The position numbers were made by a program. DNA of 64,000 nucleotides from Gekko japonicus (taxonomy: Eukaryota): assembly GCF_001447785.1 (NCBI RefSeq), contig NW_015171536.1, positions 483,102 through 547,101 on the forward strand, written 5' to 3'. This document shows, one piece after another, positions 38,501 through 44,500 of this stretch. Position 1 is the stretch's first letter. Each line of letters begins with the position of its first letter.

Positions 38501-41500
38501 ACACAGAAACCAACCAGTGCCCCAAACCACAGGTGACTGAGAGACACCATATCATTTTGGGTGGTGTCATGCTGGAATACCTGGTGGGAAGAAAGGAAGA
38601 AGTGACAGGGTGCCTTGGCTCATACAAGCATGCACCCTCCCCATTACATCACTGATGTTACAATAGAGAAGAATATGGAATGCTTAGTTACAGCTCATAT
38701 ATTTGCAATGCAACGCTAAGCACAAAGGGCCCGGGTAGGCGAGGCCCGCCATTTGCGGGGCCAGGTGGGGGAGGAAGCGGCTGGCCAATCGTTGGGTCGG
38801 GGGGGCAGGCGAGTGGTGGGAAGTTAGGTGCTTCCCCTCCCTCCCCAGGCCAATTGCCAGGCAGCAGGTTGGCCGGAGGGAGAGGCCTGGATATACGTGA
38901 CCCAGGTCACTTGCCGTCCTCATGCCGTCCTCACGCCGTTCCATCGGCAGCTGGAGCTGCTTGCTGCTAGGTTGGCTGGAGGGAGAGGCCTGGATATACG
39001 TGACACAGGTCACTTGCCGTCCTCACGCCGTTCCATCGTGGGGAGCTGCCTGGGTGAAAGAGTGGAGGATGGTGGCCAGGTATGTCCCCCGGGGCATAGG
39101 ACCGCACCATACATGGAAGCCCCCCCCTGCAGCTGCTGGGACCGGCCGGGGGAGGCTGCTGTGCGCAGCTCTTCTTCTGGCCGCGCCAACCAGCATCAGG
39201 GCTCAGGCCAGGTGCAGTCGGCCTGGGGCATTGTGGCTCCCTCTGCTCGGCCACTCGGTCCATCAGGCCTTCCGCTGCCTCACCACTCCCTCCCCTGGGG
39301 CCTAGGGCCGCACCATTCCATGGCGCCCCCCGGCCACTGGGGGCTGGCCGTGGGGAGGCTGCTGAGAGTGGCCCCCTTTTGCGGCCACATGGTCAGCGGG
39401 CTTCGCGCAGCTCCACCCCTTCCGGCCGCGCCAGCCGGCATCAAGGCTTGGCCAGACGTGGGCAGCATGGGGCCTTGCGGATCCTCCGCACGGCGGCCCA
39501 GACCATCAGCCCAGCCACTGCCTCACCACTCCCTCCCCCGGGGCCCAGGACCATGCCATTCAGTGGTGCCCCCCGCCGCTGCTGGGGGGGTGGCTGGGGG
39601 TAGCTGCCATGTGTGGCTCCCCTTTTCAGCCATGGGGCGGTGGGCTGCATGCGGCCATGCCCCTCCCCCTACCAGGCTCCTGCCTGGGCACGTGTGGTTG
39701 GTGGGGGGGCCAGATGGTCCAAACATGGGAGCATGCCCCCCCTGGGCAACAGGCGGTTTAGCCAATAATCTCGGCCCCCTACCACGGGCGCGGAGACCCA
39801 GCGGGCAGCTGATGATGGCACCATTTGCCGCCGTGGGGGGTCCTCCACCAGCACGGCTACTCAGCAGTCGGCACGCAATAAGACCAAGGGGCAGGGGGGG
39901 CTCAGGCTTCTCAGCATGCCCCTGAGTTGAGACTGAGAGTGAGGATTCATCAGGTGAGGTTGCAGCAGGTGGGGACAGGCTGCCGCTGAGCGACTATTGG
40001 GCGGTAGCGGCCCATAAACTGGGGTTGCCGGCTTGGGCAATTCATCGTAGGGCCTTGACTGCCCGGGCCAACGGGGATCCCGGGGCGGTCTGTGATGACG
40101 TGGATGTGTCCGATCCATCCTCCACCTTGTCCACGTATTCAAATGGCGAGGATCCGCCGGGGTGTCACTTAACAGATGAGGTTTGGGATAGTATTTTAGA
40201 TTGGTATTATGTTAATGTCTTTACTTTGCACAAGAAATGAGGGGAAGAGGGTTGCATGTTGACATCAGGCAGGAAGGAAAGGAAGGACAGACACAAGGAG
40301 GTGGAGCACACCTTTCTCAACTGGATCTCTGGCTACTTGTTATACACGGGAGTAGTGGCGATGGTGTATCCGGAAAGGGGTTGGCATCTGCTTTACCACA
40401 TGAACAACGTGGTCAAAGCCAGGGTCCTGGCCAGCGAGGGTCTGGCCATTGACTATGACAAGACGTGCCGTAAGCTGGTGTCATGGGACAACAGGGCATG
40501 GTGGGACTTGTTACAGGACAAAGTTTGGCTCCTGGAGGTAGGACCCTGTATAAAAGGGAAAGGAGAGGTCAAACCCAAACGGGGATCCGTGAGGCGGGAT
40601 CGGGCACGAGGGGTATGCTGGGAATATAACCAAAGGTGGTGCCGGAGGGCATGGTGTAAATTCAGTCACAGTTGCAAACTGTGTGGTGGGGGGCACGGAT
40701 GGATTTATTGTGCGCAGTCATCAGTCAGCTACCAGCCCTTTCGGGGTGGCAAGCCCTCCTCCGGTGGCACCACCAACAAAGGGGGAGGGGGGTCTTCCGG
40801 CACCGCAGCCACTTTTTCGTCAAGACGCTAGCACCTCACGGGGATTTTGGTCCTGGGCAATTACCCCGGTGCGGGTATCGGCCTTGAGACTGCTCCTGTT
40901 GGCATTCCCCTCCAAGAAGGCTGGCCAATATATTTGGGCTTCCCCATCCCTTTCAAGGGCCTGCGCTGTGCCATGGATTCAGATAATCTGAGGTCAGCCA
41001 AGGACCTGCCTGACGTGGTTGCCAAAAAGCTCCAGAAGGAGCTTTCTGTGGGGCACATCGTGGGTCCTTTTAGTGATCCCCCTTTAGCGAACCTGAGGGT
41101 ATCCCTCTTGGGAGTAGTGCCTAAGAAGACACCGGGCAAGTATCGCTTCATTCATCATCTCTCCTATCGGAAGGGTTCTTCGGTGAACAACATGATTCCG
41201 CCAGAGCTTTGCTCAGTTCGATATGCCTCGTTTGATCATGCTGTCGGGCTGGTCAGAGCATGTGGGTGGGGGGTGCTAATGGCCAAATGTGATATCCAGT
41301 CAGCATTCCGGTTGCTTCCAGTCTGCCCAGATGACTTCTGCTTTCTGGGTTTCAAATTTGGAGCGGCCTGGTACATGGACAAGGCCGCGAGGGGGCGGTC
41401 TGGTACACGAGGGATCACTCATTATCTGGATGATTTTTCTTTGTCGGCCCCAGGGACAATGGCACCTGTGCAGAATCTTTGCGGGCATTTCAAGGGCTTG

Positions 41501-44500
41501 CTGAGGAACTTGGTGTGCCGTTGGCTGCGGATAAGACCAAGGGGCCGACAACGCAGTTGACTTATCTTGGTATTCAGCTTGATTCAGAGAGGGGGGCATC
41601 GAGATTGCCGGAGGAGAAGCTCTAGGCCCTTCAGGCGCTCATCACATTAGTACGGGTGTGTTCCAAGTGCACCTTGAGGGAACTACAGTCATTGGTGGGG
41701 CATCTGAACTTTGTGTGCCGGGTCATTTCTCCAGGCAGGGCCTTTTGCTCTCGGCTAAGCCGGGCAACAGAAGGGGTCAGAGCACCCCATCATCGTGTAC
41801 GGGTGACTAATGGCATGAAGGAGGATTTGGGAGTCTGGCTTCAGTTTCTTTTGGGGTACAACGGGGTCACCATTTGGCAACAGCCCCTGGATGTGCAGGA
41901 TGCCATTCAGATACACTCTGACATGGCCGGGGGTGCCATGTTTGGAGTCTTTTATGAAGGCCGCTGGTGTGCACAGCCTTGGCCCGAGGCCTGGGGGGGG
42001 GTTGGAAGTTCTCAAGGATCTCACCTTTTTAGAGCTCTTACCAATACTGGTGGCGGTTGTGATTTGAAGGGATCTCTTTCGGAACAGGAGGGTGCGATTT
42101 GGGTGCGACAACCAGGCGGTTATGCGTGTGATGCGTCTGAACAAGTGATGCGGCTGGTCTGCTGGCTGGCTTTAGTGTGCTTGGTGGATAACATTACATT
42201 TGCAGCCCATCACGTTCCAGGTGTGGATAACAGCATAACGGATGCTTTGTCTTGCTTTCAGGAGGAGCGCTTTCGCGCATTGGCACTGGAAGCCAACCAC
42301 GTTCCAGACCTCTTTCCGGAGGAGGTTTGGGAACTTGGGAAGGTACAATAAGGCGGGGAATCTATGCCTCCATTGCCCCCTCCACTTTTCACTCTTACGC
42401 CAGGGCGATAGATGCCTTTTTCAACTTTACGGCGGAAGGCGGGGCCCCACAAACATGGCCCGTGGATGGGGAATGGGTGCTGCATTACATGGCTAGGCTT
42501 CAGGATAAAGGGTTTGCCCAGAGTACCATTCGGTGTCGCATGGCAGCCATTACATTTTTTAGTAAAGCGGAGGGGTTCATGGACCCTGCAACTCATTCCA
42601 AGCTTGTAGAGCGGTCGAGGGGTGGTGGAGGCTAGCAGTACAGTATCTGGATCACCGCAGGCCACTGACATTTAAATTATTAGAGCTAGTGTTGTGGGAG
42701 CTTCCGTCATTGTGTTGGTCCCCATATGAAACCGCGCTGTTCAAAGCTGCATTCGTGTTGGACTTTTTCGGGGCCCTGATGGTTGTTAAACTGGTAGCGG
42801 GCTCCAGACAATCATTCACCAATATGCCCTTGGGGGTTTGGGATGTTTTCATTGGGGTGGAAGGGGTCTCCTTGTTTATCAAGAGATCAAAGACGGATCA
42901 ATTGGGAAAATAAGCAAATTTGCACCTGGGCCCCCCCCCCCGGGGTGGCCATGCCCAGTACAGACCACGAGAGCATTCCTTGTGATGCGGCCACGGAAGG
43001 GCAGCCCCTTGCTCATCGACAGGGATGGGGCCCTGTTGACCAGGTACCAGTTCACGGGCGTGTTCAAGGTGGCACTGGGGGCTATGGACTTGCCCAGCAA
43101 GGAATTTGGGCCCCACTCATTTAGGATTTGGGCAGCAACCACGGCTGTGGGCCTCAGGATGTCCAAGATGCGCATAAGAGCCATTGGGCGGTGGCGCTCA
43201 ATGGCCTTCAAGGCATACATGCGGCCGCACCTGGTGGGTGGCCGATGAGGGCATCTCTGCCTCCTCAGTTCCAGATCAGAAATGCATAAAGGCATGGATT
43301 TTTGGGCACAGCATCGTTCATTGGGCTGGTTTGTATGCATTTCTAGCTGGGGCAAGGATTTGGGGCTGGAGGCAGCCATTCGCATCACGTGGATGGCCCA
43401 GCGGGGTATGTGGTGGAGATTGTTACTGCCCTGGTTGGGCCATGTCAGGGCCTGACACTAACCTCCTGATGCATTGGTGCTCCAACTGGGGGAGAATGAT
43501 TTGACAGAACAACCCAGCGTGTGTCTGGAATGCAAGGTGCTGGCTGACTTAGCCTTCTTGCGTCAGGTATTGCCCAACACAGTTTTCTTTTGGTCGGATT
43601 GGCTGGAACGGAGGTCATGGTGAGGAGCGGCCTATCCTGGAAAAGTGGACGTGGCAAGGAGGAAGTTGTCTGGCAGGCTGGGCAAGGCGGTTGAGTCTGC
43701 AGACGGTGTTTGGATCAGCCACCCGAACATCTCCCACAGGTTGGGGGCCTTGTTCCGGGCAGATGGAGTGCACCTGTCAGCATGGGGTATGGACATATGG
43801 CTACAGGGAATACGTTATTCTCTCCACTCTTGGCTACAGCTGTAGAGGCATTGGCGGGAGAAGGACTAAGTGGTTTGTCCTGCTCTCGTGGCCGTGACAG
43901 CATGGGGCCGGATCCGTTTGGCGGAAATCAGCCTGTGTGCCATTTTCCCGAGGTGGGGACCCCGTAAGGGTCTTGGCATGAGGGCTGAAGGGAGCAGACA
44001 AGCTCAAGGACTAACAGCGATAGACCTCACCGCTAGGTGGCAGGGGAGTCCACACAGGGGCAGGCGTCCAGGTGAACCCTGGCAACCTGCCATCCTGCAG
44101 TCTCTACCCATGCTGGCTGGCTGGGTAACAGATATCTCAGCTGGCAGAAGGGTCAGCCGACGGGTCGGATCTGGTGGACCCATGCTGTGCCAATGCCTAT
44201 AACAGCTGTAATCAATAAAGTTGTGGCCAATTTTATCCACCTAATTTCCAAAGAACCTGTGTGTGAGTGGTCATTTGAACGGGGCAGTATAAGGCTGGCC
44301 AAGCCGCCCCATCCCGAATACGACCTGGAACCGCAAACAGAGTTACACCCTTCAAAATCTATGGAAGTTAACGTGTGGTTTAGGACTGCACTGTTAATGT
44401 AGGGTAGGTTCGAAGGGTAGCCGTGTTGATCTGCAGTAGTACAGCTAGGCAGGAAGCCAGTAGCACCTTAGAGAATTCCACTTTGGGAGGAGATGAAAAA

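What the first reader, a model, noticed from the sequence alone, without database searches (positions are those of the whole stretch)
38715..44335. Complete five-module tyrosine-recombinase retrotransposon (gag-ZnF, RT, RNase H, YR, SGNH hydrolase) in a reptile cadherin intron
Seen in sequence: all modules are present in order, antisense to CDH19. The hydrolase keeps GHS, GEND and DGVH. Established knowledge: Ngaro-group YR retrotransposons can carry an SGNH hydrolase, resembling the esterase in some CR1/L2 ORF1 proteins, whereas DIRS1-group elements carry a methyltransferase-like domain; these elements are absent from mammals and birds. The hydrolase function is unknown. This copy is dead (stops, frameshifts) but still GC/CpG-rich, so intact relatives may exist in the genome.
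Basis: partly seen in the sequence, partly recalled or inferred. Interest (0 to 1): 0.65.

Follow-up and report, generated by a model that had tools for sequence, protein, structure and literature searches.

The report
Dead Ngaro-like retrotransposon in cadherin intron
A broken copy of a tyrosine-recombinase retrotransposon with the known Ngaro-type gene plan, including its extra lipase-like gene, lies backwards inside an intron of a cadherin gene; it is a fossil of a known kind of mobile element.

Summary
On the + strand at about 38.7-44.3 kb lies one GC- and CpG-rich block (GC 0.58, CpG o/e 0.49; flanks 0.43-0.44 and 0.14-0.22). It carries, in order, a gag-like region, RT/RNase H, a tyrosine recombinase (YR) and a short SGNH/GDSL-like region.

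- **RT/RNase H and YR:** both are shown by homology to natural proteins, mostly from squamates.
- **Hydrolase:** support is weaker. Pfam, NCBIfam, PHROGs and PDB searches see nothing. A profile I built from 20 bacterial GDSL esterases ranks its two pieces first and second of 1621 pieces in the window. The catalytic blocks fall on the profile's invariant columns, and the ESM Atlas puts one piece next to GDSL-lipase clusters.
- **Family assignment:** no methyltransferase-like domain fits between RNase H and YR, which matches the published Ngaro-like plan. No split direct repeats or inverted repeats were found, and no phylogeny against named references was possible. The Ngaro assignment therefore rests on gene plan alone.
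- **State of the copy:** every gene is broken.
- **Host gene:** cadherin exons lie on the minus strand on both sides of the element. The name CDH19 was not tested.

This is a known kind of element and of modest interest.

The parts
38715..44335 (+). The whole element as far as it can be bounded: one block of raised GC and CpG. The ends are approximate and are not marked by repeats.
   Evidence: GC 0.576 and CpG o/e 0.49, against 0.438/0.22 on the left flank and 0.428/0.14 on the right. Profile. No terminal direct or inverted repeats. No N inside.
38715..39934 (+). 5' GC-rich part (GC 0.68) with internal repeats: a 103-bp tandem duplication at 38866-39031 and repeats of about 243 bp at 39085-39589. 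Most of it is one long open frame in phase with the gag-like part. Whether it codes is undecided.
   Evidence: Repeats. Open frame. No Pfam hit. No match to any relative.
39935..40846 (+). gag-like region (broken gene) with a Cys/His motif at 40616-40711.
   Evidence: Matches residues 227-321 of P0005 (Podarcis muralis, 894 aa) at 33% identity, E 1e-18. tblastn starts at 39935. Motif spacing. 0 of 8 Cys/His positions are shared with P0005. No Pfam hit. Muscleblind CCCH fingers come back only at E 3-4.
40883..42348 (+). Reverse transcriptase plus RNase H (broken gene).
   Evidence: 21 relatives, best E 9.7e-74; 19 of 21 carry PF00078. 7 of 7 named relatives hit RVT_1. P0001 residues 1-530 of 531 align here. 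A profile of the 21 relatives hits Ty3 RT/RNase H (4ol8_A) at E 4.2e-10 over profile positions 115-525 of 551.
42357..43245 (+). Tyrosine recombinase (broken gene): N-terminal SAM-like domain and catalytic domain.
   Evidence: Pfam Phage_int_SAM_1 at E 4.7e-6, above the cut-off. XerC/XerD N-terminal matches at E 2.8e-4 and 4.8e-3. P0025 (301 aa), E 4.3e-30, 58% identity, aligns over residues 4-298. P0025 hits 17 Cre/Tre recombinase sequences at E 2.7e-6 to 2e-5.
43290..43845 (+). SGNH/GDSL-hydrolase-like region (broken gene). Block I motif at 43298, block III at 43480/43486, block V at 43762. Its open frame begins upstream and overlaps the end of the YR.
   Evidence: Ordered motif triple occurs only here in the window and in 0 of 300 simulations. 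Home-made profile of 20 bacterial GDSL esterases gives ranks 1 and 2 of 1621 pieces, on the block III and block V columns. The top 6 of 3847 sliding windows all lie here. Atlas places the C-terminal piece by GDSL clusters at 0.92-0.93. Against: no Pfam, NCBIfam, PHROGs or PDB hit, and the block I piece is not seen by the profile.
43846..44335 (+). 3' tail with the element's composition. It has no repeat shared with the 5' part. An AATAAA lies at 44214-44219.
   Evidence: GC 0.567 and CpG o/e 0.49. Sequence read. No repeats.
13778..63985 (-). Host cadherin gene. Exon-bearing open pieces lie on both sides of the element: the cytoplasmic domain at 13778-14302, and cadherin repeats at 49750-49923, 53931-54245, 58016-58234, 61009-61179 and 63815-63985.
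   Evidence: Pfam on 274 minus-strand pieces, scanned one by one, gave 6 with cadherin families. One exon piece matched 57 cadherin-superfamily sequences in the PDB, including cadherin-8 at E 1e-14.

Best explanation
This is a dead, single copy of a tyrosine-recombinase retrotransposon (order DIRS) with the Ngaro-like gene plan: a gag-like ORF, RT/RNase H, YR, and a fourth SGNH/GDSL-type hydrolase ORF. It sits in antisense orientation in an intron of a cadherin gene.

How such elements work comes from the literature, not from this copy. The RNA is reverse-transcribed, the split repeats let the cDNA close into a circle, and the YR recombines the circle into the chromosome without a target-site duplication.

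The role of the hydrolase is unproven. My best guess is by analogy with the solved esterase of LINE ORF1 proteins: a weakly catalytic lipid- or membrane-binding helper of the ribonucleoprotein particle.

In this copy nothing can work, because all four genes are broken and no terminal repeats remain. The breaks are:
- gag-like region: 2 in-frame stops against its one relative, one of which may be the natural end of ORF1.
- RT/RNase H: 1 frameshift and 1 stop.
- YR: 2 frameshifts and 1 stop.
- Hydrolase: at least 1 frameshift and 3 stops.
For: - Homology of RT/RNase H.
- Homology of YR.
- Homology of the gag-like part.
- RNase H and YR alignments are about 9 bases apart, so no methyltransferase-like domain is present.
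- SGNH-like region directly after the YR: a motif triple unique in the window; ranks 1 and 2 of 1621 pieces with an independent bacterial GDSL profile, with G-x-N-D on profile columns 118-121 and D-x-x-H on columns 201 and 204; Atlas neighbours are GDSL-lipase clusters.
- GC and CpG are uniform across all modules, including the hydrolase region and the tail.
- ORFs overlap in different frames at the RNase H/YR and YR/hydrolase junctions. This matches what is described for the Xenopus Ngaro-like families, which also have the four ORFs gag, RT/RH, YR and SGNH (PMC9210276, section 8 read).
- Break counts: and by reading.
Against: - No split direct repeats, and no inverted repeats with an internal complementary region, were found.
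- No phylogeny against named Ngaro, DIRS1 or PAT references was possible.
- Curated profiles do not see the hydrolase: Pfam at E up to 10, NCBIfam and PHROGs.
- PDB searches with three hydrolase pieces gave no SGNH protein.
- A word-based search of longer proteins gave 0 hits from 32 candidates.
- A narrow TesA-only profile gave nothing.
- The piece with the block I serine is not picked up by the broader profile (rank 818).
- The E-values of the two top pieces are weak in themselves (0.2 and 2.5).
- The Atlas scores lie in a range that 4-10 in 100 shuffled proteins also reach.
- The zinc finger has no support beyond its spacing.
Confidence: 0.85

Rival explanations
1. The last region is not a hydrolase relic. 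It is 3' non-coding sequence in which three short motifs occur by chance.
For: No curated profile or solved structure matches any of its pieces. There were no hits among longer proteins. The narrow TesA profile found nothing. My motif patterns were written after I had read the sequence. The block I piece is not seen by the broader profile.
Against: An independent profile ranks exactly the two pre-named pieces first and second of 1621, in profile order and on the invariant columns. The Atlas neighbours are GDSL clusters. An SGNH ORF is reported at this position in Ngaro-like elements of Xenopus (PMC9210276).
Confidence: 0.1
2. The element is DIRS1-like or PAT-like rather than Ngaro-like.
For: No phylogeny was run and no split direct repeats were found, so the assignment rests on gene plan alone. 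Anolis is reported to hold many DIRS1-like copies (PMC3266345, passages read).
Against: There is no room for the methyltransferase-like domain that DIRS1-like elements carry after RNase H (PMC9210276 and PMC3266345, passages read). None of the 21 RT/RNase H relatives extends far beyond RNase H (lengths 419-894 aa). No inverted terminal repeats were found. A hydrolase-like ORF is present instead.
Confidence: 0.06
3. It is a composite: a YR retroelement relic lying next to an unrelated SGNH fragment, such as a LINE ORF1 esterase or a piece of a host gene.
For: Esterase-bearing CR1, L2 and RTEX LINEs exist in vertebrates (PMC3905857, passages read). Another RT fragment lies elsewhere in the window.
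Against: The hydrolase-like frame starts inside the end of the YR gene, on the same strand. Its GC and CpG match the rest of the element and not the flanks. No LINE RT or endonuclease follows it. No match to the solved LINE esterase came back.
Confidence: 0.04

Closest known systems
[quoted passage not shown]
   Same: Four ORFs in the order gag-like, RT/RNase H, YR, SGNH hydrolase. The ORFs overlap and there is no methyltransferase-like domain. Degenerate copies often lack their terminal repeats, and the DIRS-54_XT reference has none.
   Different: This copy has no detectable split direct repeats. Its 5' part carries internal repeats, and its nearest protein relatives are from squamates.
DIRS1-like and PAT-like YR retrotransposons
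   Same: They carry RT/RNase H together with a tyrosine recombinase and a gag-like first ORF.
   Different: They carry a methyltransferase-like domain after RNase H, which has no room here. DIRS1-like elements also have inverted terminal repeats and an internal complementary region, which were not found here.
Esterase domain of LINE ORF1 proteins (ZfL2-1; CR1, L2, RTEX, Penelope; PMC3905857)
   Same: An SGNH-type hydrolase carried by a retroelement. It is the only such enzyme with a solved structure and an assay: weak esterase activity and binding to acidic phospholipids.
   Different: It sits upstream of pol within ORF1. Here the region is a separate last ORF after the YR. No sequence match to it was returned, so common descent is not shown.
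GDSL ORF3 of bdelloid Vesta LTR retrotransposons and Athena elements (PMC5408684)
   Same: An extra GDSL/SGNH ORF placed downstream of pol in a retroelement.
   Different: The element class and the host are different. That paper argues for independent captures by different element types.
Cre recombinase of phage P1 and the XerC/XerD recombinases
   Same: The natural YR relative P0025 matches Cre at E about 1e-5. The N-terminal SAM-like domain matches Pfam and the XerC/XerD models.
   Different: Similarity is remote. The catalytic-domain match is below Pfam's cut-off.
Ty3 reverse transcriptase/RNase H (4ol8_A)
   Same: It is the best solved match to the profile of the 21 RT/RNase H relatives, and the match spans both domains.
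   Different: Ty3 is an LTR retrotransposon that uses a DDE integrase, not a YR.

Membership tests
YR retrotransposons (order DIRS) | Reverse transcriptase with RNase H of the retroelement type | tested here: met
YR retrotransposons (order DIRS) | A tyrosine recombinase in place of a DDE integrase, on the same strand next to RT/RNase H | tested here: met
   No integrase family appeared in the Pfam scan of 35 pieces.
Ngaro-like | No methyltransferase-like domain after RNase H | tested here: met
   The RNase H alignment ends at 42345-42348 and the YR alignment starts at 42357.
Ngaro-like | Split direct repeats (A1 ... B1 A2 B2) | tested here: not met
   No shared stretch longer than 18 bases between 38200-40000 and 43800-45600, and none within the 3' part. 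Degenerate copies often lose these repeats (PMC9210276). This copy is therefore Ngaro-like by gene plan only, and I do not file it as a proven member.
Ngaro-like | RT/RNase H and YR group with Ngaro references in a tree | not testable with these tools
   No tool fetches the named references. An accession is printed in PMC4746887, but no collection open here holds it.
Ngaro-like (amphibian type) | An extra ORF with an SGNH hydrolase domain after the YR | tested here: met
   The support is modest, and curated profiles are silent.
DIRS1-like | Inverted terminal repeats with an internal complementary region | tested here: not met
DIRS1-like and PAT-like | Methyltransferase-like domain downstream of RT/RNase H | tested here: not met
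SGNH/GDSL hydrolases | Block III G-x-N-D and block V D-x-x-H on the family's invariant columns, in order | tested here: met
   Profile columns 118-121 and 201/204. The spacing between blocks is about 61 and 93 residues.
SGNH/GDSL hydrolases | Block I with the nucleophile serine | tested here: inconclusive
   A G-H-S motif with hydrophobic neighbours lies at 43298, but the profile does not pick up that piece (rank 818 of 1621).
SGNH/GDSL hydrolases | A score above the curated cut-off of a Pfam SGNH family | tested here: not met
   No family at all for any piece, even at E up to 10. The pieces are 49-106 aa long, so the test has little power.
SGNH/GDSL hydrolases | Flavodoxin-like SGNH fold | not testable with these tools
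   The gene is broken across frames and no intact relative was found. Structure prediction accepted no job.
LINE ORF1 esterase (ZfL2-1 type) | Sequence likeness to the solved esterase, and a position in ORF1 upstream of pol | tested here: not met
   No such hit. The region lies after the YR.
Tyrosine recombinases | SAM-like N-terminal domain plus a catalytic domain with the His-x-x-Arg box and the tyrosine | tested here: met
   Pfam cut-off passed for the SAM-like domain. The relative's box aligns with Cre's, and the same box and a downstream tyrosine are read in the window.

The most novel reading that the evidence does not exclude
Squamate genomes carry a little-described lineage of Ngaro-like elements that still includes the fourth SGNH-hydrolase ORF. 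At least one paper in print says Ngaro is absent from lizards (PMC4746887, passage read). If the lineage is real, the hydrolase has travelled with this YR retrotransposon since before amphibians and amniotes split. That would argue for a conserved role in the element's life cycle, parallel to but independent of the esterases of LINEs and of bdelloid LTR elements.
Probability: 0.4. Interest if true: 0.4.

Novelty: new member of a known kind. Interest (0 to 1): 0.25.

Why it matters
In itself it matters little: it is one dead copy in an intron. It has two minor points of interest.

- **Distribution.** The RT/RNase H relatives are annotated only as 'uncharacterized protein' in geckos, anoles, lacertids and a snake. 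One paper says Ngaro is absent from lizards. This family therefore seems under-described in squamates.
- **The hydrolase.** An SGNH hydrolase carried by three unrelated retroelement classes (LINEs, bdelloid LTR and Penelope-like elements, Ngaro-like elements) is an unexplained recurrence. A squamate branch would add depth to a comparative test of whether the ORF is under purifying selection.

The CpG-rich block could also be checked for an effect on the host cadherin intron.

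Tried and rejected
- **Pfam, NCBIfam and PHROGs on single-frame open pieces.** Only the SAM-like domain of the YR came back.
- **PDB sequence searches.** The three hydrolase pieces, the YR catalytic piece, the RNase H piece, the gag-like piece and P0001 gave nothing relevant.
- **My one whole-library protein search.** I gave it the wrong open frame, downstream of the hydrolase. Its 3 hits are bacterial repeat proteins matched by chance. The hydrolase therefore never had a full HMMER search.
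- **Word-based search of longer proteins with the C-terminal hydrolase piece.** 0 hits from 32 candidates.
- **tblastn of that piece against plasmids.** 3 chance hits.
- **Exact look-up of 10 open pieces.** 0 of 10 were in the collection.
- **Narrow TesA profile.** Built from 72 distinct enterobacterial sequences, it put no hydrolase piece in the top 15 of 1621, and the read-through window was not scored. I rejected it as underpowered (effective sequence number 0.43) and replaced it with a broader profile.
- **Atlas search with the gag-like part of P0005.** No usable hit.
- **Terminal repeats.** None found. No second copy of the element lies in the window.
- **Readings considered and set aside.** These were a Crypton DNA transposon (an RT is present), an LTR retrotransposon (no LTRs, no DDE integrase) and a host exon (wrong strand, and broken frames).

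Full report
**1. What is there**

On the + strand, from about 38.7 to 44.3 kb, the window holds one block whose base composition stands out.
- The block has GC 0.576 and CpG o/e 0.49.
- The 5-kb flanks have GC 0.438 and CpG o/e 0.22 (left) and GC 0.428 and CpG o/e 0.14 (right) (profiles).
- The raised values hold for every part of the block, including the last coding region and the 3' tail: GC 0.54-0.68 and CpG o/e 0.38-0.58.
- There is no N inside the block.
- The window holds no second copy. No relative's protein matches elsewhere, and the element's DNA matches nothing else in the window.

**2. The modules**

I searched only single-frame open pieces as they stand.

*Pfam.* Of 35 + strand pieces, one gave a relevant hit: the N-terminal SAM-like domain of phage-type integrases (PF02899, E 4.7e-6, 27.2 bits against a cut-off of 22.3). 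One piece outside the element gave a weak chance hit. The other 33 gave none. At E up to 10, 0 of 9 chosen pieces gave any family.

*RT/RNase H.*
- A 237-aa open piece found 21 longer proteins at E 1e-3 or better among 674 candidates. The best is E 9.7e-74, and 19 of the 21 carry PF00078.
- The named hits come from Eublepharis macularius, Anolis sagrei, Podarcis muralis, Erythrolamprus reginae, Zootoca vivipara and the newt Pleurodeles waltl.
- A rescan of 7 named hits gave RVT_1 in 7 of 7 and nothing else of note.
- In local tblastn, P0001 (531 aa) aligns over residues 1-530 to 40883-42345 at 57% identity.
- A profile of the 21 natural relatives (alignment A1) finds 26 solved sequences at E 0.01 or better. 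All are reverse transcriptases or pol proteins. The best is Ty3 RT/RNase H (4ol8_A, E 4.2e-10), matched over profile positions 115-525 of 551, so both domains are covered.
- Single sequences found nothing in the PDB.

*YR.*
- The catalytic piece found one longer protein among 144 candidates: P0025 (301 aa, E 4.3e-30, 58% identity).
- P0025 aligns over residues 4-298 to 42357-43242.
- P0025 matches 17 Cre/Tre recombinase sequences at E 2.7e-6 to 2e-5. An 18th match is unrelated.
- P0025 gives sub-threshold Pfam hits to Phage_int_SAM_1 and Phage_integrase.
- The window's own SAM-like piece also touches the XerC and XerD models at E 2.8e-4 and 4.8e-3, far below their cut-offs.
- The His-x-x-Arg box and a downstream tyrosine can be read in the window.
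- The catalytic piece alone finds no recombinase in the PDB.

*gag-like region.*
- Only P0005, a 894-aa Podarcis model, reaches upstream of the RT, to 39935.
- A 191-aa open piece matches its residues 227-321 at 33% identity, pairwise E 1e-18.
- The 'zinc finger' is a Cys/His motif at 40616-40711.
- That motif has no Pfam hit. None of its 8 Cys/His positions is shared with P0005. Only non-significant matches to Muscleblind fingers came back (E 3-4). It is a motif, not a shown domain.

**3. The hydrolase-like region**

*Negative results.*
- No Pfam, NCBIfam or PHROGs family matched.
- No SGNH protein appeared among the few PDB matches of three pieces.
- The search of longer proteins gave 0 hits from 32 candidates.
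- tblastn against plasmids gave 3 chance hits.
- That was my error, and the 3 hits were chance matches to bacterial repeat proteins.
- A narrow profile of 72 distinct enterobacterial TesA sequences saw nothing.

*Positive results.*
- (a) Patterns for blocks I, III and V, allowed in any frame on one strand, occur in order and at family-like spacing only at 43298, 43480/43486 and 43762. This holds for the whole 64 kb on both strands. They occurred in 0 of 300 simulated 5.8-kb sequences with the element's composition. Counts of the single blocks in the window were 3, 4 and 7. The patterns were written after I had read the sequence, so this overstates the case.
- (b) I built a profile independent of the window from 20 natural bacterial proteins: E. 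coli TesA, 3 enterobacterial relatives and 16 plasmid-borne arylesterase/GDSL proteins.
  - I ran it without filters over all 1621 open pieces of 25 aa or more, in six frames.
  - Rank 1 (7.6 bits, E 0.2) and rank 2 (4.0 bits, E 2.5) are the two neighbouring pieces that carry D-x-x-H and G-x-N-D. The next best piece scores 2.8 bits.
  - The two pieces match profile positions 197-226 and 110-122. The profile's invariant columns are G118, N120, D121, D201 and H204, and the window's residues fall on them.
  - With 198-aa single-frame windows (stops marked X; 3847 windows), the top 6 all lie here at 5.5-8.7 bits, against 3.9 for the next.
  - The piece with the block I serine is not picked up (rank 818).
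- (c) The ESM Atlas puts the C-terminal piece next to clusters whose members carry Lipase_GDSL or Lipase_GDSL_2 (scores 0.92-0.93). Ten of the ten best family-bearing hits share one clan. By the tool's own figures this is a lead, not proof.

*Conclusion on this region.* Taken with its place, its strand, its overlap with the end of the YR frame and its shared composition, I hold it to be an SGNH/GDSL relic with a probability of about 0.85-0.9.

**4. Which kind of YR element**

- The RNase H alignment ends at 42345-42348 and the YR alignment starts at 42357. No methyltransferase-like domain can lie between them.
- Papers read in passages (PMC9210276, PMC3266345, PMC6681497) give the marks of Ngaro-like elements: lack of that domain, split direct repeats and, in amphibians, an extra SGNH ORF after the YR.
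- Section 8 of PMC9210276 describes Xenopus DIRS-53_XT and DIRS-54_XT with exactly these four ORFs, all overlapping. It also describes many degenerate copies that have lost their repeats.
- Here, repeats were looked for and not found. No shared stretch longer than 18 bases links the 5' 1.8 kb and the 3' 1.8 kb, none lies within the 3' part, and there are no inverted terminal repeats.
- A tree against named references could not be made.
- I therefore call the copy Ngaro-like by gene plan and do not claim proven membership.

**5. State of the copy**

| Gene | Frameshifts | In-frame stops | Compared with | Source |
|---|---|---|---|---|
| gag-like region | 0 | 2 (one may be the natural end of ORF1) | P0005 | |
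| RT/RNase H | 1 | 1 | P0001 | |
| YR | 2 | 1 | P0025 | |
| Hydrolase-like region | at least 1 | 3 | direct reading | |

- For RT/RNase H, two relatives that reach further upstream show one more frame change at the junction with ORF1. That may be a natural ORF overlap.
- The CpG level is still well above the flanks, so the copy is not ancient. No age can be given without other copies.
- Whether intact relatives exist in the same genome could not be tested. The collections of viral and metagenome contigs were closed, the genome collection holds only bacteria and archaea, and 0 of 10 open pieces were found by exact look-up.
- The nearest proteins found are only 51-60% identical, so they belong to other families or species.

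**6. Host gene**

- I scanned 274 minus-strand open pieces one by one.
- Six carry cadherin families: the cytoplasmic domain at 13778-14302 (E 2.2e-16), and cadherin repeats at five places between 49.7 and 64.0 kb (E 2.3e-9 to 2.2e-4).
- One exon piece matches 57 cadherin-superfamily sequences in the PDB, among them cadherin-8 at E 1e-14.
- The element is thus intronic and antisense.
- The name CDH19 stays untested.

**7. How it works**

- *Shown here:* the gene content and order, and that every gene is broken.
- *From the literature (passages of PMC6681497, PMC3266345, PMC9210276):* such elements are copied through RNA, the repeats allow a closed DNA form, and the YR inserts it without a target-site duplication.
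- *Inferred:* the hydrolase helps the particle deal with lipids or membranes. The basis is the ZfL2-1 ORF1 esterase, a true SGNH enzyme of low turnover that binds acidic phospholipids and liposomes (PMC3905857, passages read). GDSL ORFs have also been taken up by bdelloid LTR and Penelope-like elements (PMC5408684, passages read). No sequence tie between these hydrolases and this one was found here.

**8. Verdict**

Interest is low to modest.

The only points beyond routine are two. The family seems under-described in squamates: one paper, PMC4746887 (passage read), says Ngaro is absent from lizards. And the SGNH ORF appears to have stayed with this element type across amphibians and squamates.

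For 'not in print' I ran only four searches: Ngaro with hydrolase and tyrosine recombinase, with squamate, with Anolis, and with lizard. Repbase and subscription journals were not searched.

Noticed in passing
window 30070-30525 (+), within 29.3-36 kb: An open piece of 152 aa carries a BTB/POZ domain (Pfam E 1.5e-7, 32 bits, above the cut-off of 20.5). It lies in a stretch with raised CpG (o/e 0.36-0.45). Long open pieces lie on both strands at 29.3-30.5 kb without Pfam hits. It could be an intronic gene, a retrocopy or part of another mobile element.
   Followed up: no
window 8293-8562 (+): A reverse-transcriptase fragment (RVT_1, E 7e-6, below the cut-off). It is another retroelement relic, unrelated in position to the finding.
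   Followed up: no
window 38866-39031 and 39085-39589 (+): The element's 5' part holds a 103-bp tandem duplication (95% identity) and two to three repeats of about 243 bp (61-78% identity). They lie inside a 365-codon open frame in phase with the gag-like part. Either the first ORF has a long repetitive Pro/Gly-rich N-terminus, or the frame is open by chance in DNA of GC 0.68.
   Followed up: partly
window 40616-40711 (+): A Cys/His motif with the spacing C-x7-C-x4-C-x3-H, then C-x2-C-x3-H-x4-C. It resembles a CCCH finger followed by a knuckle. It is absent at the aligned place in the only relative that covers it (0 of 8 positions shared).
   Followed up: partly
proteins P0015, P0001 and P0025 (unnamed sources): P0015 (459 aa) matches both the RT part and the end of the YR part of the element (outer bounds 40934-43227). 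P0001 (RT/RNase H) and P0025 (YR) both list a longest contig of 4103 bases. Both points hint that RT and YR are linked in other natural copies.
   Followed up: no
window 46837-46917: A 36-bp tandem repeat of 2.2 copies lies downstream of the element.
   Followed up: no
literature: PMC4746887 (passage read) states that Ngaro is absent from the western clawed frog and from lizards. PMC9210276 describes Ngaro-like families in Xenopus. Here the nearest RT relatives are named proteins of Eublepharis, Anolis sagrei, Podarcis, Zootoca and Erythrolamprus.
   Followed up: partly
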